This document shows positions 15,973-61,375 of a DNA stretch of 64,000 nucleotides, piece by piece. Under the pieces are notes generated by a model. It searched no databases. It worked only from the letters and a program-made list of their open reading frames with translations, and was not told the DNA's origin. The translations under genes and the position numbers were made by a program. Source of the stretch: Leucoraja erinacea (taxonomy: Eukaryota); assembly GCF_028641065.1 (NCBI RefSeq), contig NC_073402.1, forward strand, positions 20,708,001 through 20,772,000, read 5' to 3'. Within the stretch, counting starts at the first letter, position 1, and every line of letters begins with the position of its first letter.

Positions 15973-18334
15973 TCCTGGAAATGGAATGGAACAGAGAACC
16001 AGGAGAATACTTTCAAGGATTGGGGAAGAATATGAGTTGTAACTTTCTCACACAAAGGGTGGTGTTTGTATGAAAGAAGCTACCAGAGGTAGTTGCGGCT
16101 GGGACCATCCCAACGTTTAAGAAACAGTTAGGTACATGGATAGGACAGGTTTGGAGGGATATGGACCAAACCCAGGCAGGTGGGACTAGTGTAGCTGGGA
16201 CATGTTGGCCGGTTTGGCTAAGTTGGGCTGAAGGGCCCGTTTCTACACTGTATGATGTAGATTGGGTAGATAGAAACGTTTCCCCATAGCAGAGGTGTCT
16301 AAGAGGGCTTGGGTTTAAGGTGAGTAGTAGTAAGTTTGGCGAAATCTAAGCAATAATTCATGTTGAGAGTGGTGGCAATCTGGAACGCAGAGCCCAAGAG
16401 TGTGGTAGAGACAAGTACTCTTACAATATTCAGCAAATGGATGAGCACTTGAGCTGCTGAGACATAGCAAGTTATGGACCAAGAGCTGTTAAGCAGCCTA
16501 TGATCGACATACAGTAAGACATGGTGGGCCAAAGGGCCTGTTTCTTAGCTTTATGACATTTTGACAATGTAATAAAGCACCATGAAATCATTTAAATTGT
16601 ACTTTCCATGAGTTGATTGGAGTCCATTAATTTTTTTAATCTGATTTCCAATGAATAGATTACATTTCAAAACCAAGTGGAACGATCCTTGCATCTTTGT
16701 AAACTGTTGCTGCCATCTGGTGGGAATGCAAGGTGCTCCTCCTTGGATAGTTGCAGACAAAGGAAGCTGTCTGCCAAAAGCAATGCTCAACTTTGTAACT
16801 AATGCTGAAGCAGCAAAATCATAATTTCAGAAAATAGAGCAGCACTGCTGGCCTCAATCACTCCCAGACACACAGTTAGAGATATATTTCAGAATTGTTA
16901 ATCCATTAATTAAATAGCATTGTCAAACCATGAGCTAAAATCGCTCTGCTAAAGTCATGTCAACAAATTTAGGGCAGCAGACAGCATTGTGGTAATAATG
17001 TAATAAGAAAGAACTGCAGATGCTGTTTATACCAATGATGGACACAATATGCTGCAGTAACTCCGCAGGCCAGGCAGCATCTCTGGAGAAAATAGATGAG
17101 TGACATTTTGGGTTGAGCCCTCATTTTCTCCAGAGGTGCTACCTGACCCACCGAGTTCCTCCAGTATGTTGTGTCTATCATTGTGGTAATTATACATTTA
17201 CCCAAACACCTACAATGAGAACAATCTGCATGGAGGCTGGATGTTAGTGGAATGCATGATACAGATGCCTTCATAAATCACCTGAACAGGGGAAAATAAA
17301 TGTGAGTAGCATTGGCCATTTCTTACTCAGGGATGCATAAGCATCTCTGGGACAAGGTAATAGACAGTGCCTTGGACTTTTCACAATGCTACCCCCATGA
17401 GACTGGAAATTTGTATTCCAAACTACACTCCCATAAAATGTTGGTGTATTTTTAATCAACATAGTGTTTTGATGATGGTAGCTGTTGGTGGTGGGGGAGG
17501 CAATGTTTGGTGGGATGATAAGGGCACAGCAGGGGCAAACAGTATGCCTGAAATTCACTAAGAAATGTCACCGGCAACTCAAACATCTGTGCTGCTGCTG
17601 CAGCAGCAGCAGCAGCAAGTGGCAGAGACAAGTATTATTTTGGGAAATTTGTTTATCTGGTTTCAATGTTAGGGGGTTTTGATGAAGCCAAATGAAAACT
17701 AGCTGTAACAGGACAAACCTCAAGTTTTTCCATGCATAAGTGGTCCAGGAACAAATCACTCATAGCATGGAAGCAGGATCTTCCAGCCAACTATCACATC
17801 CACTTACACCAATCGATTTTAATTCTGCCCGTAATCCCATCAACTCACGTCAGACTCCACCACCTTCACACAAGGAGCAATTATAGTCGCCAATTAACCA
17901 ATGCACATACCAGGGGCAATTACACTTATCGATCAACCAACCAATGTACATGTTCGGGTTGTGGTTTGAAACCAAAACACAGAGAGGAAACCTATGTTGT
18001 CAGGGAGAACAAGTGCAATCTCCACAGATAGCACCCGAGATTACCCCCTTCAGGTTGCTGGCACTGAGAGGCAGGATCCCAACTTGTAAAGGTACACTAT
18101 TCTAGAACTTAAGCAAGCCACATTGACCTGCCGTTTGTGCTGATCAAATGTCTTAATTGGTGAATGTGAAGATACTGTGGAGAAACCAGAATTATCCAGC
18201 TACTGATCCAAGTTCCACTTATGCAAGATGTGTTATGCTTGCATACGCACATCTCATTGAAGATTAATGCAAAATTTCCCTGTTATTGAATGGAATGCAT
18301 GCCAAGGCTTCTTTCTGGATTGTCTGACAAGAAA

Positions 18335-40027: not shown

Positions 40028-41004
40028 GTAGGTATTCAGTTAAGTTTTATACAAATATCTTGCCAGAAAAAGTGTTTATGTTCAATAAAGTTAAAAGTAC
40101 ATTACCTTAATGCCACCAGAAAGGAACGACACGTTTTTGCATCACAGGACTTACTTATCAAAGTTATATTGTTAGAGTATTATTCAAATTCATCAGAGTT
40201 TCCACAAGCAGCAATGCACAACTTTGGCTAATAGCAGATTTAGATAATAGCAGAGGATTTTTATTACCTATCAAAACCAATGGAACATGTTAACCAAATC
40301 TCTATGTAATATCTTGTACAAAGGATAGCACCTCCAGTTTAAAAAAAAAAATTTAAAAAAAATAGAAACCAAGATCTTGAAGGGGTGTTGGAATCTTGTA
40401 TCAAAGACAGACATTATCAACTAGACAAAAACTGACATTAATATATAAAACATCACAAAAAATAACAAGGGTTTTCTATCCAAAGTAATTATATTCCTGA
40501 AATAAAACTAATTGCCGGTGTATTTAGGTGTCAGTTATAACAATAATGAATTTGTTCGAACTTAAATATCATAAGAGGCTCAAGTCAAGATTCAGAGGCA
40601 CTAACACAAGAAAACTACATTTAATATGGGCTTTATGATTTATAAAACTAATTATATTTATCTCTGTAATATTACTCATCTCTACAGACCTCAAATCACA
40701 ACTTCTGGAACACTCTTAATTAATTAATGTTTTATTATTTTTAATGTTTAGTGTTTTCTGAATCGTTCGTAACTGTCACTGTCATGTTGTTAGAGCACCA
40801 AGGCAAATTCCTTGTATGTGAATACTTGGCCAATAAACTTGCTAACTTACTAACTCTTCTAAGCTTTTTTTTTTTAAAAAGGGTATTTGACATGCTTGCC
40901 TTCATCAGTCAGAGTATTGAGAATAGGAGTTGTAATGCTAGATTTGGTAAGGCCAGATTTGGAGTATTGTGTACCAGGACTGGAATGTATGAGTTATAAA
41001 GAAT

Positions 41005-41218
41005 GTAGGAAAGAACTGCAGATGCTGGTTTAAACTGAAGATAGACACAAAAAGCTAGAGTAACTCAGTGGGACAGGCTGTATCTCAGGAGAGAAGGAAT
41101 GGGTGACATTTCGGGTCGAGACACTTCAGACTGGTGAAGAAGGGTCTCGACCTGAAACGTCAACCATTCCTTCTCTACAGAGATGCTGCTTGTCCCGCTG
41201 AGTAACTCCAGCTTTTTG
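41005..41218. repeat. Inverted pair of Penelope-derived terminal repeats
   Basis: An antisense copy directly followed by a sense copy, forming an ~85-bp-arm palindrome centred near 41133; the same layout occurs at ~46412-46710, ~49441-49685 and ~58810-59066. Confidence 0.8.
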
Positions 41219-41407: not shown

Positions 41408-41560
41408 CTCTCTCCTGCCGCTCGCTGGCCTCACTCATGTCAGCCGCTTCCCGCAAATCCTTAAATTCCGACAGCGCAATTGAGGTTACTCAGCTGTGGG
41501 AATTTAAGGATTTGCGGGAAGCAGCTGACATGAGCGAAGTTGGCGAGAGGCAGTTGAGAG
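41408..41560. repeat. Long inverted repeat / hairpin
   Basis: CTCATGTCAGCCGCTTCCCGCAAATCCTTAAATTCCGACAGC pairs 40/42 with the downstream arm, with looser pairing extending outward. Confidence 0.85.
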
Positions 41561-43265: not shown

Positions 43266-44299
43266 TAAGCTTTCTACCACTGAAAGTTGGGGAAAATAAA
43301 AATACCGGTTATCCAGTGGTATTTATCAGCTGTTATACATGGCCAGCCATTTTGAAATGAATGTCATCTTAGAAATCCTGCTACTTGTTTATCGATGCTC
43401 ATTTAAATATTACCAACCTGTGATCTTCTCCGATTTGTTAAGTGTTCCAGTTTGACTAGTTTTGTGGCATAAATCTATTTTTTCTATATTTAATAAAATG
43501 GTATCCTGGACTACAATGTTAATTTACAAATTTTATTTTTTATAATTAGGCAAATGACTGGCTTCTGCCTGAACTTGAATTGCTTTCTATTCTAGCTTGT
43601 GTATGTAATTGTTAGTTTAAAGTGAATATGTATTATTGAACTAGGTTTAACATTTTATTTTTCAGGATGCTTAGTAACTCAACTTACTTAAATTTTGATC
43701 CAAGGCCCTCTGTTTTGTATTACGGTTTAAACTTAAAATCAACCTAATCACACAGAGAATGGTGTATGTGTGCAGAACATGTGAAAGAAAACTAAGTGAT
43801 ATCAAAGCCAATAGAAACTTTAAAAGCTTGTTAAACAAGGCTGTAATTCTTTATCAATGGATGTTCTGACATTGAGAACTGAATGTTCACTGATTTGTAC
43901 ATTACCTGTTGGTTTTATTTTAAAGAAACATATTTTCTGCACCATTTAGTTATCCATTTTAATCTTTATTCAGCATACCAAATAATGAAATGGCTTGAAC
44001 TATAATTTTGTCTTAAATGTTATGTATTTTGTTGTAACCATTCATCAGGATCCAACTATAGTTGATGATTTCCTCAAATGCTTTTCTTTATGTACAAATC
44101 TTTATGGCTCTGTTTCACGCTTAATTTCTAAATAAAAAGATCAATTTTAAATATAGTTTATTTTTGTTGAAAGTGTTTTTGGTACAAAATAGCAAGAAAG
44201 TTGATTGTAAAATATTTAAATGGACAGAAACAATCCATCCAATTTGCATTGCAGAAGCAACAAACGGTATACACATCGGAGTGGAATGAGACATCAGAT

Positions 44300-44930
44300 A
44301 AAACCCCGACAGTCCTTTCAGGTTAGGCAGAGGTTCACTTGCACCTCATCCAACCTCATCTACTGTATCCGTTGTTCAAGATGTGGACTATTATACATCG
44401 GCGAGACCAAACGCAGACTCGGCAATCCTTTCGCGGAACACCTTCACTTGGCCTGCGTGAACCAACCTGATCTCCTGGTTGCTGGACACTTTAATTCTCC
44501 TTCTCATTCCTACACAGACCTTTCTGTCCTCAGTCTCCTCCATTGTCAGAGTGAGGCTAAACGCAAATTGGAGGAACAGCATCTCATATTTCGCTGGGCA
44601 ACTTACAGCCAAATATTGAAACCTCTCACTTCAGGTAGCCCCGGCATTCCCCCCCTCTCTTTCTACTACCCCCCCCCCCCCCCCCCCCCCCCCCTAGTCT
44701 CACTAGCTTCTCATTGTCACCCTAGAGTATACAATGGCCTGTTTCCTTTATCTTTCTTAATTTTTTGCAAGTTTTTCAATATTCTTTATCTCTCCACATC
44801 GCTGACTATATCTCTCGTTTTCCTTATCCCAGCCAGTCTGAAGAAGGGTCTTGACACGAAACATCACCCATTCCCTCTCTAGAGATGCTGCCTGTCCCGC
44901 TGAGTTACTCCATCTTTGTGTCTATCGTAG
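44300..44930 (+). mobile_element. Penelope-like element 3' fragment: GIY-YIG endonuclease plus hammerhead-bearing terminal repeat
   Basis: FTCTSSNLIYCIRCSRCGLLYIGETKRRL...EHL...HFNSPSH...KLEEQHLIFR, then CTGAAGA-stem-GAAACATC at 44838-44865. Confidence 0.9.
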
Positions 44931-47657
44931 GTAAAATTATTCACTGATTATACTGAATCAGTGTAACAAATGCCCTTTCTGATAGGTAAATAGCAATATG
45001 GTGGCTAGCAACACTGGTTTTAAAATGTGTAAAAGAACAGAAGTGCTGGAGTAACTTGGCAGGTCAGGTAGCATCTCTGGAGAACCAGGATTGGAGATGT
45101 TTTGGGGCTAGACCCTTCCTCAGATAGGTCTGAAATGCGTACTATCTTTAAATCATTTTTTAAAGTTATTTTCCACGATAGTACTGTTTCATACCCATGC
45201 CTCCATAAGTTCAGCCAGTTTATCTTCATAATGCAAGTCACAATCCCAATCTCCTATTGACAATATACAATAAAGTGATGGGAATGTTACAAATTTCCGA
45301 AAGTAGTTGAAAATAGAATCCCTTGCGTAACTGCTAACAACAATGGAAATATCTTTGCTGCAACAGACACGATCCATCTTAACACCACATAGCCAAATAG
45401 TCCAAGACAAAGTAAAGGATAGGTAGCCCAAAGTATAGAAAATGTACTTGCAAGTGATAACATTTAGAAAGAAATGAACATTTGAATAGAAAACATTTGT
45501 GCCTAGGATGGGTTTTAAAAAATTGCCACCAGCATAAAATGTTAAATCTCCCCTTCTCAATCACTGCCTCTGGTACTATTCCAATTCTTGCAGTCAGGAA
45601 ACAAGCAGCATTTTTTGCAATTACGTTATTTTTCTGTTGCAACAAAACATTTAGTTTATATACCTGCTCAACTTTTCATTCTGCTTTATTTGTGTATTGA
45701 TAGTAAACAATTGGTTAGTCATCAAACAATTGATTAAATGAAAGGGTATATTTAAGTCAATAGCACCAAGAGGAATCATTAGGGTTAGGCTTTGAGGGAA
45801 GAGTACATAATTTTGTGTAACTGAGCTTCATGACTTGATATTGTTAGATGATGCTACTGTTGAAGTGAACTATGTAAAATGAGAATAGTGTGCATTACAA
45901 TTCCCAAACAATGTTTGTACCTTGCTAACTATCTCAGTGAAGTGACACAGTACAGAATTTAATGACCGTTCACTATGGAAGTTCATTATGAATAGTTAAG
46001 GTGAATTGAAAAATATGTAGCTTAAGATTCATTACATTTAAATGATTCATGAAGACAACTTTTAAACATTTTTCATCTTGAGATGCTGACCACATTAATG
46101 CTTCACATAAACTGGAAATGCAACTTCAAACCATACTAAGGTTCCAGAAATAGTTGGTTATAGACTGGCAAACCAATATTCTGATTTCCTAAAACCGCTG
46201 CTCATTTTCTATTAAATATTAAAGTAACACAAACAAGTGACTAAGGATATTAATCTTAAAGCCTTCATTACACCAAAAAAACATTATTTGTGGCCTCCTG
46301 TACATCAGTGATACCAAGCATAGACTCAGCTCACTTGCGCTCAATCATCCAAGACCTACTGGATCTCCTGGTTGCTGACCATTTTAACTCTACTTCCCAT
46401 ACTGACCTGGGCTAGACACCAAAAGCTGGAGTAACTTAGCGGGACAGGCAGCATCTCTGGAGAGAAGGAATGGGCGATGTTTCGGGTCGAGAAATTCTTC
46501 AGAGAAACATCACTCATTTTGCGTCTGCCGCACTTTGTACTGCCTCTCATCTCGGCTTTCTCCCCGCACACCCCACAATTAGTCTGAAGAAGCGTCCCAA
46601 CCTAAAACGCGACCTGCCCATATTCTCAGAAGATGCTGCTTGACCCAATGAGTTACTCCAGCACTTTGTGCCCTTATGTGTATACCAGCTACTGCAGTTC
46701 CTGGTTTCTACTTTTAAATTGCTGGCTATGACTGACAAGCAAAGAATTACACTGTGCCTTGTTACATGTGACAATAAAGTATTCCACAACTCCATGTACA
46801 ACCATTGATAGTTGACCAAGAAGTGCTGGAGGATTATGATCCATCGTAAAAGCACTGATTATCATTCCCACAATCTCATCAGTTGTCATTAGGGACTGTA
46901 TTCAGAGCTGCTGTAGTAGGGGCAGAAATTTGCCGTGAGACGTTAACCAGAGTGCAAAATAGCTGCCAAAAGAAGACCAGGTCAACCAAAGTATGTTTAT
47001 TAAAAACTAAAAAATTCAATATTTCCGCTATTTAAAGATGGCAAAACAAAGTATAACTAATTATTGTGTTTTAATAACAGTGCACTTTCAAGTAAAGGTT
47101 TCCACCAGTTGATTTATCTGCTTAAAAGACAAATATAGAAGAACACAAGAACCGGATATACATGTTAAATCAGTATTTGGACAAACACCTTTAATCAAAT
47201 GGGTCAACCACTTTCTGTGGACTTTAGAGGTCTTCCATTTTGTTGATAAAAGTTAGACCTTCAAAAGAACAAGGATTTTCAACCATCCATCTTTATTTTC
47301 CGGCCAAAAAGTGTGGCATCGTAAGACCGAAAAATAATGGGCAATTAGAAACTATGTCTTTTGTCCGTCAAATATATTTGGGGAAGAAAAAAATAATAAT
47401 CGTACAACCAGAAAAATATCACGTAAGCCGTTTCTTGCAAAACCAAGTCCGGTGTGGTAAGTAAATCTGAATTGGGCATTACAATTCAGATTGGCAGCTG
47501 CGAAATCCGCTCACATTAACCTGGTTTAACAATGAAGGAGACAGGCATCGGGCAGCTGCAACTGGTAGAAAAACTGGTCTTGAAACGGCGGCGGTATCGG
47601 GCGGGGGGGTAGGAAACGTTGCTCCGGGTAATGTCCCTCTTGCAGCCCGCCCTCGCT

Positions 47658-48143
47658 TTATCTGGCCGCGCGTAGTAATCCAGGTCTGGAAGGCACCATC
47701 ATGGGCCGGTGAGGCCCCATCATCGGGCCCGGCATCATGGGCACCGGGCCACCCATGGGCGGTCTCATCCCCGGGCCCACCAACATCATACCGGGCGGAG
47801 CGTGGCCCATCATCGGCATCATGGGCGGCCCTCCCATCGGCGGCCCGGGTAGGATGGCGGGGCGAGGCGGCGGCACCCCCACGTTGCCGGGAGGCGGCGG
47901 GATGGCAGCTCCACCCGGGGGCGGCCCGGTCGGCGTGGAGAATGGCGCGGTGGGCGGGATCTTGCCCTGGCGGAAGGCGGCCGTCGTCTTATCGATCAGG
48001 CTCTGGGCCTGCTCCTCCATCCATTTCTGGTAGTAGTCCTTGACGTTCTCCTTGTGCTTGCGGCCCTCGCAGTGCGTCTTGCGGACGGACGGCGAGTCGT
48101 GGGTGAGGTAGGTGTCGCAGTAGTCGCAGTAATACTTGGGCAT
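47658..48143 (-). CDS. snrpc: U1 snRNP C protein (U1-C), intact single-exon retrogene, 161 aa
   Basis: [57 protein letters not shown] (U1-C zinc finger) plus a Pro/Met/Gly tail; no introns or disablements; minus-strand AATAAA at 47001-46996. Confidence 0.93.
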
Positions 48144-48324
48144 CTTGTCAGCTGCTGCTCCTCCGCCGCTGCCGCCGGGTCCCGCTGCTAATCTTTGTTG
48201 CTGTCGCTGCTGCTGCTGCTGCTGGCGTCCCTCAGACACCAGTCATGTGATCCCCGCACACGAGCATGCGCACAACCCGCACCCTCAGGCACACAATGGG
48301 CCAAAGATGGCTGCAGATGCTGTA

Positions 48325-49015
48325 ATTCAATTCAACTTTATTGTCATTGCACAAATACGAGTACAGGTACAAATTCAGATTCAATTTTAATTGTCATTGT
48401 CAGTGTACAGTACAGAGACAACGAAATGCAGTTTAGCGTCTGGTCATAGTGCAAGATAGTAGAAATAAAAATACAAATAAAAATAAAAATATGGTTAACA
48501 ATGTGTGGACTGTGGATGAATTAAACTGGTACATAGGCAATAAATGTACACAAATGTATACGGAGAGTCTAAAGATAGCTAGCGACGGGACTCTGAGTTC
48601 AGCAATGTAATTGTGTTATTGAAAAAGCTGTTCCTCAGCCTGCTTGTGCGATACCTGAGGCTCCTGTACCGCCTCCCTGATGGGAGGAGGGCAAATAGTC
48701 CATGGTTAGGGTGAGGGGTCCTTGATAATTTTCCCGGCCCGTCTCAGACACCGTTTTCGGTGGAGGGCATCCATGGCAGGGAGCGGGGCACCGATGATGT
48801 GCTGAGCGGTTTTCACCACCCGTTGCAGTGCCTTCCTGTCAGCTGTGGTGCAGCTGCTGTGCCATACCGTGAAGCAGGTGGTCAGGATGCTTTCGATGGT
48901 ACAGCAGTAGAAGTTGGACAGGATCTGGGGGGACAGGTGAGCTTTCTTAAGCCTCCTCAGAAAGTAAAGGCGCTGCTGCGCCTTTTTGATCAGTTTGGTG
49001 GTATTGAGGGACCAG
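48325..49015 (-). mobile_element. Rex1-like LINE 3' fragment
   Basis: Antisense KKAQQRLYF.RRLKK and LPSGRRYR-like segments, with a short-repeat tail at ~48325-48390. Confidence 0.7.
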
Positions 49016-49323
49016 TAAGTAAGTACGTTTTATTTATATAGCACGTTTTAAGTCAACTCGCATTGACACCAAAGTGCTTTACATAAAATAGATAATACGT
49101 TTCCATACAAACCATAGAAAAAGGTTAAAAAAAATGAAGAAAATGGACACAACACATTAAAGAGTTCAACACAAACATCCCCCCACAGCAGAATCAAAAG
49201 ATTCCACTGTGGGGAAAGGCACCAGAAAGTTAAGTCCTCTTCCTCTGTGAAACACCCGAGGTCGGGGCCCATTTGAGGCCTTGCAGCCAGTCCGATAATT
49301 TTCAGGGCCCTCTTGCTGTGGAC

Positions 49324-49347
49324 CAAAGATTCGCTCTATGATCTTTG
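49324..49347. mobile_element. 24-bp TIR-only transposon scar with 8-bp TSD
   Basis: CTGTGGAC|CAAAGAT+TCGCTCTATGATCTTTG|CTGTGGGC: 7 nt of the left TIR, 17 nt of the right TIR, TSD 7/8. Confidence 0.8.
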
Positions 49348-49493
49348 CTGTGGGCATTTCTGTTTCTGTTTCTGCTTGCTACCGCACAACCGCCAACAGC
49401 TGGACTTACCCCTCTGACAAATGAGATATCTCCCCACGATGGACACAAAAAGCTGGAGTAACTCAGCCGACCAGGCATCGTCTCTGGAGAAAA

Positions 49494-49540
49494 GGAATAG
49501 GTGACGTTTCGGGTCGAGACCCTTCTTCAGACCTATTTCC
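49494..49540 (-). ncRNA. Minimal type I hammerhead ribozyme (Penelope-type), complete core with helix I
   Basis: Minus strand AAUAGGU-CUGAAGA-A-GGGU(CUCG)ACCC-GAAA-C-GUC-ACCUAUU: conserved core, helix II, palindromic ACGU helix III and a 7-bp helix I. Confidence 0.7.
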
Positions 49541-50795
49541 CTTTCCCCGGACTCTTAATTTGAAGAAGGGCTCGACACGGAACGTCATCCAATCCTTCCC
49601 TCCAGAGATACCGCGTTTTCCCGTTGAGTTACTCCAGCTTTTTGTGTCTACGGTATAAACCAGCGTCCGCAGTTCTTTCCTACACAAATCGTAAGTGATA
49701 GGAGAGAATGAGGCCATTCGGCACATTAAGTTTACTCTGCCATTCAATCAATCATCTCTCTCCCTCTCTCTCTTAACCCCATAGCCTCTGACACCCATAC
49801 TGATCAAGAATCAATCTATCACTGCCTGAAAAATATCCACTGACTTGGCCTCCACAGCCTTCTGTGGCAATAAATTCCAGATTCACCACCTTCGGACTAA
49901 AGGTATGAAAAGGCACATCGAACAAGTGAATGAAAATAAGACAGATCCAAGCCAGCAACGATGATCAAGGAATGGTGGAGCCCACAATGGTCCATTGTTG
50001 GCTGTGGAAAAGATGATACCTCCTGACGAGTAATAACGAGAACCATTCCTTCTCTAGAGATGCTGCCTGTCCCAACTGAGTTACTCCAGCATTTTGTGTA
50101 TATTCTCAATGATGCTTTATAATGACATGTATCTAAGTACAGTGAAATTCTTTGTTTTTGCATACAATCCGGTAAATTCATACAGCAGACCTCACCTAAG
50201 AGTTACACAAGTTGCCACGTTTCTGGCACTGGCAAACCTCTTTGTACATTCATATGCTGGAATGACACAAAATACTGGAATAACTCAGCAGGACAGGCAG
50301 CATCTTTGGAGAGAAGGAATGGGTAACATTTCGAGTCAAGACCCTTCCCCTCCCGTTGAGTTACACCAGCATTTTGTGTCTATCTTCAGTGTAAACCAGC
50401 ATCTGTAGTTCTGCATCTGCAGACAAAAAAAATATTCAGAATTTTTTAAACTGCAAAACAAAAACTGCACAAAAACACTTCATACATTCTTAGTGGTATA
50501 CACTACTGTTGTGCTCAGCTGTGTTCACAGCTATCTTTACACAAAACAACTTTGCAACTTGTGGTAGTTTTTGTATCACTGGCTTACAGGGCGCAGTTTT
50601 TTGTCATTTCAAATATAAATGTTATTCAAAATAAAGAAATATATACAAAATTAAGCAGTGAAAAAACGTATGCCTATATATTCAATAGTGTAGCCATCAC
50701 AGCAGTTTACTTTACTTTTTTTACTTCTAAAAATTGATTTTATTTGGAATAAAAAATATTCACAAAAAAAATCATGCAAAAGATTATCATAGAAA

Positions 50796-51098
50796 GGGCA
50801 ACACAGTGGCACTGCAGTAGCGTTTTTGCCCAACAGTGCCAGACACCCGGGTTCGATCCTGACTACGGCTGCTGACTGTACGGAATTTGCACGTTCTCCC
50901 TGTGACCACGTGTGTTTTCAACAGGTGCTCTGGTTTCCTTCGACTCTCCACAGACAAACTGGTTTGCAGGTTAATTGGCTTTGGAAAGTTGTAAGAATTG
51001 TCCCTGTGTGTTGGATAGTGCAAGTGTACGGTGTAATCAGCAGTCCATGCGGACTTGATGGGCTGAAGGCCCTGGAATCCATGCTGTATGTATCTCTA
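50796..51098 (+). mobile_element. tRNA-derived SINE (V-SINE/HE1-like)
   Basis: A-box-like 5' end, B-box GGTTCGATCC at 50850-50859, core GGAATTTGCACGTTCTCCC, CR1-like 3' end. Confidence 0.8.
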
Positions 51099-51444
51099 AG
51101 AAGGCTCAGAAGGCTGTGGAGGCCAAGTCAGTGGATATACTTAAGGCAGAGATAGATAGGTTCTTGATTAGTACAGTTGTCAGAGGTTATGGGGGGGGGA
51201 AGGCAGGAGAATGGGGTTAGGATGGAGAGAGATTAGCCATGATTGAATTGCGATGCAGATTTGATGGGGCCGAATGGCTCCTACCACATGATCTTATGAA
51301 GTCTAAAGGTTCTTAGTATCTATACATTCAAAAGTGTCATATTCAGTAGTGTTCGTACCAATCTTTAAACAAAACATCTGGATCACTGGGACGATAACCC
51401 TCCCCTTTGAGGAAGTAGCACTTGGTGTTTCGCTCCCTGGTTAC

Positions 51445-52508
51445 CAAAGATCTTATAGCGGAGCAAGATAGGCTACTCCTGCTAAATGCAATGGACTGAC
51501 GTGTAGTACGCTATGGAGGGGGATCATGGGCATTTTCCACGCCCATTTTAGCAACCTGAGCCTACCTAACCCGACCCGACTCGCACTGTAATCAATGTTG
51601 CGGGGCAACAGTTTGTGTGGGTCAGATTCATAAATCTGTCAGTTCAAACTTCTTGTCAAGAATAAAATTTGATTCTGGTAATTGTCTTTTTTAATGTTTT
51701 TTAAATCATTTCTTTTTAAATGGCTCACAAGCAGTGTTTGAGTTGATTTTGTAGTAACCGGAACCGACCGACTCGCAGGGTGATTGACAGGGGGGACTTT
51801 TTGTGCGTGATTATAGGGTTAGATTCGTAATTCAATTAGTTCATAATTCTGTTGATTCTTGTTAAGGAATAAAATGTTTATAAACACACATACATGAAAA
51901 TTATATAAATGTATATAACACACACAATTATATTTCTTCTAAACCAATAATGAACTTTATTTCAGACTAGACAAGGGACATTAAATAAGAAACATTGTAA
52001 ATAAGAAACATTGTCTTGGGGCACTCTCTCTCCCCGCTGCCCCGGGCCCCGCACTCCTTCTCCCCGCTGCCCCGGGCCCCGCACTCCTTCTCCCCGCTGC
52101 CCCGGGCCCCGCACTCCTTCTCCCCGCTCTCTCTCCGCTGCCCCGGACCCCGCACTCCTTCTCCCCCGCTGCCCCGCACTCTCTCTCCCCGCTGCCCCGG
52201 GCCCCGCACTCTCTCTCCCCGCACTCCTTCTCCCCGCTGCCCCGGGCCCCGCACTCCTTCTCCCCGCTGCCCCGGGCCTTGCACTCCTTCTCCCCGCTGC
52301 CCCGGGCCTTGCACTCCTTCTCCACGCTGCGGATCCAATCTTTGGCCGGAAGCAAGAAGGCGGGAGCAAGAAAGCGGTGCAAGATGGCGGAACAAGATGG
52401 CGGAGTCTGCTTGCTAAAATGTGTCCTGTAATCACCCATGAAACCGCCCATGAGCGTACCTCACGTTTGCGTGAGAGTAACCTATCTTGCTTCGCTCTAA
52501 GATCTTTG
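51445..52508. mobile_element. Non-autonomous TIR DNA transposon, 1064 bp (probable P superfamily)
   Basis: 34-bp TIRs (51445-51478 and 52475-52508, 31/34 identical, CAAAG...CTTTG), perfect 8-bp TSD CTGGTTAC (51437-51444, 52509-52516), no transposase ORF. Confidence 0.9.
52019..52330. repeat. GC-rich ~30-bp minisatellite inside the TIR element
   Basis: About 10 units of GCACTCCTTCTCCCCGCTGCCCCGGGCCCC with partial units; source of the repetitive ORFs at 51962-52601. Confidence 0.95.
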
Positions 52509-52519
52509 CTGGTTACTGT

Positions 52520-52555
52520 CAAAGATCCTAGAGGAGCGCTCCTCTATAATCTTTG
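52520..52555. mobile_element. 36-bp TIR-only transposon scar with 8-bp TSD
   Basis: GTTACTGT|CAAAGATCCTAGAGGAGCGCTCCTCTATAATCTTTG|GTTACTGT; 18+18 palindrome (16/18). Confidence 0.88.
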
Positions 52556-52599
52556 GTTACTGTGTCCAGAGACAATAATCCCTCCCCCCTCCCCCCTTT

Positions 52600-52870
52600 A
52601 GAAAGGATGGCATCACGTGAGGAGGTGAAGTGAGGTGGGCGTGGTTAGACGCATGCGCACTGCCCCCCCCGGCGGTGGGGCGAACAATGACTGGCGTTTT
52701 AATGAAAGGATTACATCATCACGTACGCCGTCACTAATCACGTGACGTCCGGGCGGACTGGCATGCGCAAAGATCCTATAGCGAAGGATCTTTGGGCATG
52801 CGCAGTGGGTCTTTGCTGGGACAAAGATCGTCTATTGTTTGTGGTGGGGACTGTGCGCGGCCGAGTGAGT
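52600..52870 (+). promoter_or_regulatory. tmem50a CpG-island promoter and non-coding exon 1
   Basis: NRF1-like CGCATGCGCA (~52650) and GCATGCGCA (52761, 52796), E-box/CRE TCACGTGACGT (~52738), GC boxes, donor GA|GTGAGT at 52865. Confidence 0.7.
52768..52794. mobile_element. 27-bp TIR-only transposon scar with 8-bp TSD
   Basis: GGCATGCG|CAAAGATCCTATAGCGA+AGGATCTTTG|GGCATGCG: 17 nt of the left TIR plus 10 nt of the right TIR. Confidence 0.88.
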
Positions 52871-53410
52871 ACAGACTGCGCTTTCGTTAAACGCCTAGCA
52901 TCATTTGGTGCTTCGACTGTCCAGTTGTTGTTCTTCCTCTTTACAACACGGCGTGCATTTTCCTGACGGTCGTTGATGCGTCTCCGAACTGGGCTTCACT
53001 GCCTGGGCCAGAGCTCAATCGTTAAAGGTCCAAGGAAGTTTGGATGTGGGGTTGGGGTGTCCGACTCTGTCCGTTTGGGGGTAGTTGTGGTCCGTGAGAA
53101 CACCGACTTGTAGCTGGAGAGAGCGGAGTGGCAGATTCCCAGCAGTAGCCAGGCTGTTGCTCGGCCTAGACACCAATATTCATCAAGGAACATGTAGAAT
53201 AGATCATTGTTAGTTAGAAATGCACGCAGTGTTGTGACCAGTCTTACTGTCTTTTACTACATTTCATCTCTGTTTGCTTTGTTGTTGCCTTCTTCCAACT
53301 AACAATGATGTATTCTACATTTTCCTTCAGCTACATTCCCTTTGTCCTGTTTTTACACCTTACACTTCCTTATCTACACACCTCCTTATCTATGTAACGC
53401 CTACTCCGCT

Positions 53411-53548
53411 GACATCAGTCTGAAGAAGGGTCTCGACCTGAAACGTCACCCGTTCCTTCTCTCCAGAGATGCTGCCTGGCCCGCTGAGTTACTCCAGCAT
53501 TTTGTCTAACTTCAATTTAAACCAGCATCTGCAGTTCCTTCCTACACG
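53411..53548 (+). repeat. Penelope-derived short repeat with hammerhead core
   Basis: CTGAAGA-A-GGGTCTCGACCT-GAAA-C-GTC at 53420-53447, followed by the family tail AGAGATGCTGCC...GAGTTACTCCAGC...CCAGCATCTGCAGTTCC. Confidence 0.8.
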
Positions 53549-57349: not shown

Positions 57350-57505
<156 letters not shown>

Positions 57506-59572
57506 TGAAAAATTGACCTTTTTTGATAAGATAATTATAGAAGTCATATCTTAAAAGATAATTATAAAAGTTATATATTTACTCTGGGTAAATTCTGTGT
57601 ATTTTCAAAAAGATTTATTAAAAAAATGATAATATCAACATAATAAATATGATAAATGTGTAGGGAGGAACTGCAGATGCTGGTTTAAACCGAAGACCGA
57701 AACAAAAAGCTGGAGTAACGCAGCATCTCTAGGGAAAAGGAATAGGTGACGTTTCTGGTCGAGACCATTCTTCAGACTGAGTAATGTAATAAAATATAAT
57801 ATAAAATATAAAGTTCCAGAGCATCTTGGATTTCAGAATTTACCTGATTAATCCAAATACCACTGATGCTATTAAAGGTCATCAACTTGAAATGATAACT
57901 GATTCTCTCTGCACAGATGTTGCCTGACTTGCTAAGTATTTGCAGTTCTTGCTTGATTTTCTAGCATATGCAGCCCCTTTGCTTCAAAACACAGTGGAGG
58001 AACAAGAAACTGCAGATGCTGAAATCTTGAGAAAAATCAAAGTGCTGGAGGGTCAGGCAGCATCTTGGCGGGAATGGATAGACAATATTTCTGTCGAGTT
58101 TGAAGAAGGGTTCCAACCTGAAACGTCTTCAGTCCATTCCCTCCACAGATGCTGCCTGATCCACTGTATTCCTCCAGCACTTTGTGTTTTGCTCAAAAAT
58201 AATCTGCTGCCCCAGAAATCGTACAGTGGATTGTTATTCTCATTTCAATGGGCACATGTCGACTTCGCTTTTTTAATTACAATAATTTACGTAACCCACT
58301 ATAATTTTTGGTCCATTTTTTTTCTCTGTGGGAGTACCTCTATCTGTCTGACAGCTGGGACTTACTTGTCTTCCTTTGCATAACAGCCCTTTTTTACATT
58401 TCCCCTGTAAATGGGTGTCATAAAGTGATTACTTTTACCGTGGGATCAGTTTTATTGTATTGATCCTGGTATACAAACATGCTATGTATATCTTTGCCCT
58501 ATCTTGCTTTGCTTAGCAATCTAAACACTTCCCTAATGTAATTATTGTCTCCTCTAACATGACCGTTAAATTACCTTCTATATGTTGACCTCCTTTTGCA
58601 TAATCCTTTTTCCTGTAAATCTCTTGGATTAACCATATTACAAACTCGCCAAATGTTATTATAATTTCCAGAAATTCCTAAACCACCTGAGTTCTCTGGT
58701 TTCCACATCCCAAAGATATGCTGTTAATTCGTAACTGTAAACTGCCCCTAGTATAGATGGATGGTAGGAGAATAGGCTGGGGAGGGCTGGAGAGAATAGA
58801 TTACAGGGGATAGACACAAAATGCTGGAGTAACACAGTGGGACGGGCAGCATCTCTGGATGGAATGAATGGGTTACATTTTAGGCCAAGTCCCTTCTTCA
58901 GACTGAAATTCACAAAAGTTCCACTGACTTTCAGTCTGAAGAAGGGTTTTGACCCGAAACATCACCCATTCCTTCTCTCCAGAGATGCTACCTGTCCCAC
59001 TGAGTTACTCCAGTATTTTTTGTCTATCTTCGGTTTAAACCAGCATCTCCAGTTCCTTCCTACACATAGATCACAGGGGAACGCAATTGCTCGGAGAGCC
59101 TGCTCTTGGTAGCCTTTATGATTCCTATGTTACGAGGAAAATATCTGGAAACACCACCCCCTTTATCCTTTTTCCCTTTCCCCCCACTTTGACTGAAGAC
59201 ATTAATCTTTTACAATTGGATTATAGTGACTTCATGTCTTTCATTGGAATTAATAACAGTTCGAATATGTGGTGCTAATAGCCAAACCTAATCCCAACCT
59301 GATTATCCCAACCTGAGGGATTGAGGCTAGCTAGTGTTACAACTGCTTGGCTTTCAACATCTAATGGCATTGATGAGAGACCGAATCACTTGCTGTTGCT
59401 TTCTCTTGCTGACTTACTTTCTTTGGGTGTTACAATTTGTTCTGCCATTGATTCTGATAATGTGTTTACTGACATTTTGTATATTTGACAATATGCCATT
59501 CACTAATGTGAATCAGAGGAAATTTACTTTACATTTACTTTCACAATATTTAAGGATTTGTTTATCTTTTAG

Positions 59573-59725
<153 letters not shown>

Positions 59726-61222: not shown

Positions 61223-61375
<153 letters not shown>

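What the first reader, a model, noticed from the sequence alone, without database searches (positions are those of the whole stretch)
49494..49540. Structurally complete hammerhead ribozyme upstream of, and sense to, the snrpc retrogene
The minus strand reads GGAAAUAGGU CUGAAGA A GGGU CUCG ACCC GAAA C GUC^ACCUAUUCC. All core nucleotides are present, and helix I has 7 perfect bp that extend further past a bulge, whereas other copies here have only 2-3 bp. Helix III is the palindromic ACGU typical of minimal Penelope hammerheads, which are reported to cleave as dimers. Predicted cleavage is between 49503 and 49502. It lies ~1.3 kb upstream of the snrpc ATG on the same strand, so it could cut read-through or divergent transcripts from the tmem50a promoter.
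Basis: partly seen in the sequence, partly recalled or inferred. Interest (0 to 1): 0.7.

Follow-up and report, generated by a model that had tools for sequence, protein, structure and literature searches.

The report
Transposon hammerhead locked in a hairpin
This self-cutting RNA motif is real but is one of over ten thousand identical cores in this genome, likely left by a Penelope-type jumping gene; its unusually long stem comes from the joint with a mirror-image copy next door, which is predicted to fold over and block it, so it likely does not control the nearby snrpc gene.

Summary
The motif is there as described, but it is ordinary. Its 31-nt core has 10,833 exact copies in this genome. 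It is the minimal type I hammerhead at the 3' end (pLTR) of a Penelope-like element. The family's own helix I is 0-2 bp (40 of 40 copies). Here the 7+10 bp helix exists because this copy is one arm of a head-to-head pair: most of its 5' strand is the reverse complement of the partner arm's pyrimidine tract. That partner lies upstream on the minus strand and is predicted to pair with the catalytic core as it is made (P at least 0.96; hammerhead fold costs 18-24 kcal/mol). Helix III has one pair, so a dimer is needed; no intact same-strand partner lies nearby. In RNA of close relatives snrpc starts near 48190, 1.3 kb downstream, with no reads in unique DNA upstream of the site and no pile of ends (shallow, mostly poly(A)). 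Other junction-made copies have better, unblocked helices. The scan reported this family before on other shark/skate DNA. Verdict: new member of a known kind, low interest.

The parts
49503..49530 (-). Minimal type I hammerhead core: CUGAAGA, extra A, 4-bp helix II with CUCG loop, GAAA, palindromic ACGU in place of helix III, C17; predicted cut 49503/49502
   Evidence: Sequence; fold; identical 31-mer (49500-49530) occurs 10,833 times in G000
49438..49532 (-). Left arm: 5'-truncated 3' end (pLTR piece) of a Penelope-like element, beginning 2 nt before the hammerhead core
   Evidence: 91% identical to a natural copy from relative position -2 on; thousands of family contigs leave the alignment at 49532; same segment follows the endonuclease region in 8 of 17 EN-bearing loci at 215-255 nt
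49534..49687 (+). Right arm: a second, more decayed copy of the same pLTR end in opposite orientation, head to head with the left arm; its own core (49560-49586) is broken (C3 to U, GAAA to GGAA, helix II disrupted)
   Evidence: Self-BLAST and inverted-repeat arms; alignment to natural copies; 81% identity
49531..49548 (-). 5' strand of the long helix I: 2 nt native to the left arm, 3 junction nt (49533-49535), the rest the antisense of the right arm's native pyrimidine tract
   Evidence: Plus strand 49536-49560 aligns to the upstream tract of natural copies L089, L076, L064, L069
49486..49502 (-). 3' strand of helix I, the family's ordinary post-cleavage sequence
47658..48143 (-). Intronless snrpc (U1-C) ORF, 161 aa; its RNA starts near 48190 within its own CpG island (about 47400-48400)
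   Evidence: zf-U1 PF06220 E 6e-23; RNA contig 47200-48189 and fall of read depth above about 48300; CpG scan
51901..53200 (+). CpG island, inferred promoter of tmem50 (first coding exon near 57400, further exons near 59580 and 61229-61327, plus strand)
   Evidence: CpG scan and exon motifs; PF05255 hit; promoter role is inference
44220..44931 (+). Longer fragment of the parent element: GIY-YIG-type endonuclease region followed by the same hammerhead-bearing end (44838-44865)
   Evidence: ORF; 90,181 first-look candidates genome-wide; relatives give weak GIY-YIG hits below Pfam cut-off and an RT-type YIDD motif

Best explanation
The site is one of more than ten thousand identical hammerhead cores in this genome and sits in one arm of a head-to-head pair of repeat ends, likely left by a Penelope-like retrotransposon; its long helix I is built across the joint between the two arms, and the upstream arm is predicted to pair with the core and keep it from cutting, so it is likely an inert relic and not a regulator of snrpc. 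Steps: (1) shown: identity with the family, inverted pair, origin of the 5' helix strand from the partner arm's pyrimidine tract; (2) inferred from known PLE biology: the pair arose in one insertion event in which an inverted 5'-truncated copy was joined to the first; (3) inferred: the tracts before and after the core are both pyrimidine-rich, so inverting one makes it complementary to the other, and three junction bases (chance or locally templated) complete the helix; (4) predicted by folding: an RNA that starts more than about 50 nt upstream forms a long hairpin instead of the hammerhead; (5) from the literature: even unblocked, such motifs need a dimer and cut poorly.
For: 10,833 exact copies of the 31-mer, 0 for the reversed control; 152 family fragments in 400 kb sampled at round coordinates, about 830,000 extrapolated. 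Helix I in 40 of 40 exact-core copies taken in list order is 0-2 bp (28 with 2, 7 with 1, 5 with 0; two listed copies already fetched as L001 and L002, with 4 and 3 bp, were skipped). Inverted arms at the site; 36 head-to-head pairs among 180 fragments, 6 of them in this window. Junction alignment. Folding: cost of the hammerhead fold 1.2 kcal/mol with up to 40 nt upstream, 3.0 at 50 nt, 18-24 with the partner arm; higher than in 37 of 40 unselected copies (median 8.9); U4-A9 paired with P 0.96-1.0 at every stage of a growing transcript. Not unique: of 30 examined out of 43 copies with an ATRGGT leader, 16 have 7 or more contiguous pairs with G-U allowed and 5 with Watson-Crick pairs only, this site included; three have 24-32. 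No intact same-strand partner between 36 kb and 57.7 kb. RNA: snrpc contig begins at 48189; depth 0 at 50497-50810 and 51282-51438 in 3 of 3 raw-read runs; no place where many molecules begin or end. Literature: single min-HHR showed no cleavage, dimers low (PMC4209133); the anole PLE hammerhead cut only with its protein, and no RNA-seq ends were found at its site (PMC11167929); inverted 5'-truncated copies are typical of PLE insertions (PMC8557442).
Against: The left arm is well preserved (91% to a natural copy, core perfect with both CpGs intact) while its partner is 81%, and a 7-bp Watson-Crick helix I is rare among exact-core copies (5 of 30 even after selecting for the leader); selection is not excluded, since the orthologous site in relatives could not be read. 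The RNA test is weak: 3-6% of each raw run was read, libraries were oligo-dT, poly(A) or single-cell and would lose unstable upstream RNAs, the runs are from other samples or relatives, and organism C differs enough at 50383-50861 that its zero there says little. In the stranded run X21 minus-sense reads lie at depth 9-55 over 48456-49397 and 41 over the site; they carry family-type differences and 85% of laid reads run on unlike the locus, so I read them as other copies, but a low locus-specific signal cannot be excluded. Folding is an equilibrium model without proteins or helicases. The PLE assignment rests on sub-cut-off GIY-YIG hits, motifs read by eye and layout, not on a full-length element.
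Confidence: 0.88

Rival explanations
1. Cleavage-competent but neutral: the motif would cut as an intermolecular dimer (or with PLE protein) if an RNA began within about 40 nt upstream or if the hairpin were unwound, but with no consequence for the host gene.
For: Isolated 47-87-nt pieces form helices I and II at a cost of only 1.2 kcal/mol; all core bases and the palindromic ACGU are intact; family RNA is plentiful in all RNA runs laid, so partners exist in trans; dimers of such motifs show some cleavage (PMC4209133).
Against: No sign of a start site at 49533-49570 (no piled ends); with 50 nt or more upstream the fold is lost; the two-strand minimum-energy fold exchanges helices I and II and does not show the ACGU helix; family 5' ends are not enriched at the cut site (3 of 167 at +26..+30 against 55 of 167 at -3..0; junction at the cut site in 4 of 100 against 51 of 100 twelve bases further in).
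Confidence: 0.08
2. Co-opted insulator: the ribozyme cuts divergent or read-through minus-strand RNA from the tmem50 promoter before it reaches snrpc.
For: Orientation and place fit: 2.4-3.7 kb from the tmem50 CpG island, 1.3 kb before snrpc; best helix I of the seven core-box copies in the window; snrpc appears to be the only detected U1-C copy, so its control could matter.
Against: Such an RNA carries the blocking arm first; no cis dimer partner; zero depth in unique DNA between promoter and site; with about 24 family fragments per 64 kb on either strand, a sense copy within 1.5 kb of any gene is expected.
Confidence: 0.03
3. A chance match to hammerhead boxes in a repeat with no ribozyme ancestry.
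For: No Rfam hammerhead model matches; native helix I is only 2 bp.
Against: Every feature listed for PLE min-HHRs is present: extra base between positions 9 and 10.1, G10.1-C11.1 pair, palindromic 15.1-16.1 stretch, place in the repeat just after the endonuclease region (PMC4209133).
Confidence: 0.01

Closest known systems
Minimal type I hammerheads (min-HHR) in the pLTRs of metazoan Penelope-like elements (Cervera and De la Pena 2014, PMC4209133; parts 1-2 of 4 read, supplements not read)
   Same: Core boxes, extra base after A9, G10.1-C11.1 pair, palindromic stand-in for helix III, mostly solitary copies from truncated elements, and pairs close together on opposite strands, all described there.
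   Different: Helix II is 4 bp (7-8 bp in the Schistosoma families); native helix I is 2 bp (4-5 bp there); copy number is far higher (10,833 exact cores against thousands); at this site helix I is a junction product.
EN+ Penelope-like element insertions with an inverted 5'-truncated copy (Craig et al. 2021, PMC8557442; passages read); Neptune/Nematis type by the cysteine linker
   Same: Heavy 5' truncation, inverted copy joined at the 5' end, hammerhead near the 3' end, C-terminal GIY-YIG region with a cysteine-rich linker before it (read by eye).
   Different: Both arms here are ORF-less; no target-site duplication longer than 7 nt with one mismatch was found; clade not tested by a tree.
PAc (Poseidon of Anolis) hammerhead (Frangieh et al. 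2024, PMC11167929; parts 1-2 of 4 read)
   Same: Uncleaved RNA is what gets inserted; no RNA ends at the cut site, matching.
   Different: Different clade and species; protein assistance is untested for this family.
Non-LTR retrozymes (PMC7229834, passages; bioRxiv 10.64898/2026.07.22.740005, part 1 of 5 and passages)
   Same: Type I hammerhead, PLE-related, non-coding.
   Different: Retrozymes are head-to-tail tandem units with a hammerhead in each unit; this is a head-to-head pair with one broken core.

Membership tests
PLE minimal hammerhead (min-HHR) | Core boxes CUGANGA, GAAA and UH triplet | tested here: met
PLE minimal hammerhead (min-HHR) | Extra base between 9 and 10.1, G10.1-C11.1 pair, helix II | tested here: met
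   Sequence; helix II P 0.96 in isolation
PLE minimal hammerhead (min-HHR) | No monomeric helix III; palindromic 15.1-16.1 stretch | tested here: met
   ACGU
PLE minimal hammerhead (min-HHR) | Lies in the terminal repeat of a PLE, downstream of an RT-EN ORF | tested here: met
   Same-strand arm 215-255 nt after the EN match in 8 of 17 EN-bearing loci; GIY-YIG hits E 7e-4 to 0.09, below cut-off, in 3 of 5 frames scanned; YIDD motif
PLE minimal hammerhead (min-HHR) | Self-cleavage as a dimer | not testable with these tools
   Needs in vitro assay; no piled RNA ends seen
Canonical monomeric type I hammerhead (Rfam hammerhead families) | Stable helix III and match to a curated model | tested here: not met
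   One A-U pair only; no hammerhead model at E up to 5 (window) or 10 (101 nt)
Canonical monomeric type I hammerhead (Rfam hammerhead families) | Hammerhead fold is the favoured fold in its transcript context | tested here: not met
   Cost 18-24 kcal/mol, P(helix I) and P(helix II) 0.0
Canonical monomeric type I hammerhead (Rfam hammerhead families) | Loop 1 - loop 2 tertiary contact | not tested
   Helix I has only a one-base bulge at 7 bp; contact not modelled
Non-LTR retrozyme | Head-to-tail tandem units each with a complete hammerhead | tested here: not met
   Head-to-head pair, partner core broken
Co-opted, conserved host-gene hammerhead | Conserved at the orthologous site and inside a host transcript | tested here: inconclusive
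   Orthologous junction swamped by about 200,000 repeat contigs per run; outside the snrpc RNA as seen
Neptune-clade PLE | RT phylogeny and cysteine linker between RT and EN | tested here: inconclusive
   Cysteine-rich linker seen in P0001; no tree built

The most novel reading that the evidence does not exclude
Head-to-head joining of Penelope ends repeatedly builds new hammerheads with long, perfect helix I out of a family whose own helix I is only 2 bp: about 4 in 100 of 2,414 short junctions fall so that the partner arm stops at the cut site (roughly 100 copies by extrapolation from the first 100 listed), leaving the core free inside a 9-32-bp stem (fold cost 1.2 kcal/mol or less in 8 of the 30 leader-selected copies, e.g. 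L039, L045). These, more than the present site, could cut host RNAs as trans-dimers with the abundant family RNA, making PLE insertion a standing source of new cleavage sites; this site would be a member that is switched off by its own hairpin unless that is unwound.
Probability: 0.08. Interest if true: 0.55.

Novelty: new member of a known kind. Interest (0 to 1): 0.13.

Why it matters
As it stands it matters little: it is one more copy of a motif described in 2014, and it shows that a good-looking ribozyme helix in a repeat-rich genome can be an accident of an inverted joint and be cancelled by its context. If the junction-built, unblocked copies do cut, they would give natural test cases for the open question of whether PLE minimal hammerheads ever cleave in vivo.

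Tried and rejected
Rfam: no hammerhead model matched. Orthologous conservation: laying four DNA contig sets of relatives was swamped by repeat copies; no listed piece bridged the junction, so nothing can be said. The run search listed no holder on record as RNA; X5 is RNA by guess. Genomic trace of cleavage in the family (5' ends or junctions piled at the cut site): looked for, not found. Target-site duplication around the pair: best match 7 nt with one mismatch. A spliced exon supplying helix I at the pyrimidine-tract/AG just before the core: no recurring complementary leader in 40 copies, loose ends at 49532 in RNA are mixed (agreement 0.38-0.52); not supported. A parent snrpc gene with introns: only this locus matched; short exons could be missed. 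Rh genes as a synteny marker for tmem50a versus b: no PF00909 match on this contig. Pfam on the window's EN-like ORF and on one 425-aa frame: no hit; PDB: none; Atlas look-up unavailable. Lunse et al. (PMC5785218) is not held: seen only as a reference line and as summarised in PMC6765202 (passages). Literature searches for this family in cartilaginous fish found nothing relevant: 'hammerhead ribozyme'+'elasmobranch' 0 papers, Penelope+Neptune+skate+genome+repeat 0, one search returned only hammerhead-shark papers; supplements of PMC4209133 and the bioRxiv preprint, not read, may list such motifs. Earlier notes near this place or by sequence: none.

Full report
Observation. The core boxes, the extra A after A9, a 4-bp helix II and the GUC triplet are intact, and the predicted cut lies between 49503 and 49502. 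Folded alone, the 47-mer forms helix II (P 0.96) and helix I (mean P 0.82); forcing the 7-bp register costs 1.2 kcal/mol, and the helix runs on for 10 more pairs past a one-base bulge. Helix III is one A-U pair around two bases, so the motif is not complete as a monomer. No Rfam hammerhead model matches, in the window at E up to 5 or on 101 nt at E up to 10.

It is a repeat. The 31-nt core has 10,833 exact copies in the 2.19-Gb genome, the reversed control none. Forty 10-kb stretches (39 at round coordinates, one next to the window) hold 152 fragments of the family, 24 per 64 kb, about 830,000 by extrapolation; the window holds 28; 38 of all 180 keep the core boxes. The segment belongs to a Penelope-like element: a longer piece at window 44220-44931 carries an endonuclease-like frame followed by the same hammerhead; that frame has 90,181 first-look candidates in the genome; in 8 of 17 such loci the hammerhead arm follows on the same strand at 215-255 nt; 3 of 5 frames scanned give GIY-YIG hits below Pfam's cut-off, and one 425-aa frame shows a YIDD motif and a cysteine-rich linker (read by eye). 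That the host is a skate or ray is my inference from recall of this repeat and from the earlier notes; no call names it.

Where the long helix comes from. In 40 exact-core copies taken in list order the contiguous helix I is 0-2 bp (two listed copies fetched earlier, with 4 and 3 bp, were skipped); the six other core-box copies in the window have 1-2 bp. So the site is unusual. The reason is its layout: it is the left arm (49438-49532, minus) of an inverted pair whose right arm (49534-49687, plus) is a second copy of the same element end with a broken core. Plus-strand 49536-49560 aligns with the native pyrimidine tract that precedes the core in natural copies. Read on the minus strand this tract is purine-rich and pairs with the pyrimidine-rich sequence after the cut site. 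Of the 17 pairs, two come from the left arm's own bases, three from junction bases 49533-49535 and the rest from the partner's tract. Whether the three junction bases are chance or locally templated was not tested. Head-to-head pairs are common (36 among 180 fragments; an inverted arm within 400 nt upstream in 5 of 40 exact-core copies; 2,414 short junctions genome-wide) and are a described feature of PLE insertions (PMC8557442, passages). Long helices recur: of 43 copies with an ATRGGT leader, 30 were examined; 16 have 7 or more contiguous pairs with G-U allowed, 5 with Watson-Crick pairs only (this site included), and L035, L039 and L045 have 31, 32 and 24.

Context blocks the fold. On the minus strand the partner arm comes first. 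With up to 40 nt upstream of the core the hammerhead fold is near the optimum; with 50 nt it costs 3.0 kcal/mol, and with the partner arm 18-24 kcal/mol, helices I and II at P 0.0. In a transcript growing from 49800, U4-A9 are paired with P 0.96-1.0 from the moment they are made. The cost at this site (24.4) exceeds that of 37 of 40 unselected copies (median 8.9), while 8 of the 30 leader-selected copies have a 7-bp or longer helix at a cost of 1.2 or less. These are equilibrium predictions without protein.

Dimer partner and activity. Minimal PLE hammerheads did not cut as monomers and cut weakly as dimers (PMC4209133, parts 1-2 of 4 read); the anole element's hammerhead cut only with its protein, uncleaved RNA was the inserted substrate, and no RNA-seq ends were found at the site (PMC11167929, parts 1-2 of 4). 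The only other intact minus-strand core in the window is at 57748-57775, inside tmem50; the minus-strand copies at 46476 and 36009 have broken helix II and no palindrome. The family shows no genomic trace of cleavage: 55 of 167 copies begin at -3..0 of the core and 3 of 167 at the cut site (unrepresented subfamilies could inflate the first number); among the first 100 of 2,414 junctions 4 fall at the cut site and 51 twelve bases further into the core.

Genes and RNA. snrpc is an intronless 161-aa ORF at 48143-47658, the only match in the genome, inside its own CpG island. tmem50 exons lie on the plus strand from about 57400, with a CpG island at 51.9-53.2 kb as the inferred promoter. Three raw RNA runs and one contig set (RNA by guess) were laid on 47200-51900 at 96%. 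A contig with 3 differences in 991 nt covers snrpc from 48189 down; in run X24 depth falls from 133 (47985-48141) to about 1 (48456-48612); unique stretches 50497-50810 and 51282-51438 have depth 0 in all three raw runs; no place shows piled ends. Limits: 3-6% of each run read, oligo-dT, poly(A) or single-cell libraries, other samples or relatives. Against my reading, the stranded run X21 has minus-sense depth of 9-55 over 48456-49397 and 41 over the site; these bins are high-copy repeats, the reads carry family-type differences and 85% run on unlike the locus, so I take them as other copies, without being able to exclude a small local share. Conservation of the junction in relatives could not be read.

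Comparison and verdict. It works like, and by every feature I could test is, a PLE minimal hammerhead; it fails the tests for a canonical monomeric hammerhead and for a retrozyme. Earlier notes of this scan describe the same kind of family, inverted pairs and 5' ends just before the ribozyme on other shark or skate DNA; they agree with what I had measured but are not independent support. I found no paper on this family in cartilaginous fish in three searches; unread supplements may cover it. Best reading: an inert transposon relic whose striking helix is a junction by-product (0.88). The most novel reading left open concerns the roughly 100 unblocked junction-built copies elsewhere (0.08). Interest 0.13.

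Noticed in passing
L035, L039, L045, L034, L050 (G000 C2:116780564, C9:9275490, C14:40576713, C2:95889240, C20:8545645): Fold-back copies whose partner arm stops at the cut site, leaving an intact hammerhead core inside a 9-32-bp stem with fold cost 0.5-0.6 kcal/mol; better candidates for activity than the present site.
   Followed up: partly
window 47658-48143 (-): The intronless snrpc is the only U1-C match found in the genome and is expressed: possibly a retrogene that replaced its parent. Short exons of a parent could have been missed.
   Followed up: partly
family-wide; e.g. window 53400-53420, L089, L076: A pyrimidine tract ending in CAG sits right before the core and copies' 5' ends pile up there (55 of 167 at -3..0). 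It resembles a 3' splice site, as described for Drosophila Penelope in PMC4209133, or a transcription start; no spliced leader was seen.
   Followed up: partly
genome-wide: Short head-to-head junctions are strongly biased to one register (spacer 12 in 51 of the first 100, spacer 11 in 15), where the two arms share a few bases; points to microhomology-guided joining or deletion.
   Followed up: partly
window 41429-41539: A near-perfect 40-bp inverted repeat with a 31-nt loop, unrelated to the Penelope ends by the BLAST; weak Rfam microRNA hit far below cut-off; perhaps a MITE.
   Followed up: no
window about 52020-52330: GC-rich tandem array of roughly 29-nt units just upstream of the tmem50 CpG-island core.
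   Followed up: no
window 17004-17179, 41004-41218, 46413-46700, 50264-50412, 58809-59066: Five more head-to-head pairs of the same element end in this window.
   Followed up: partly
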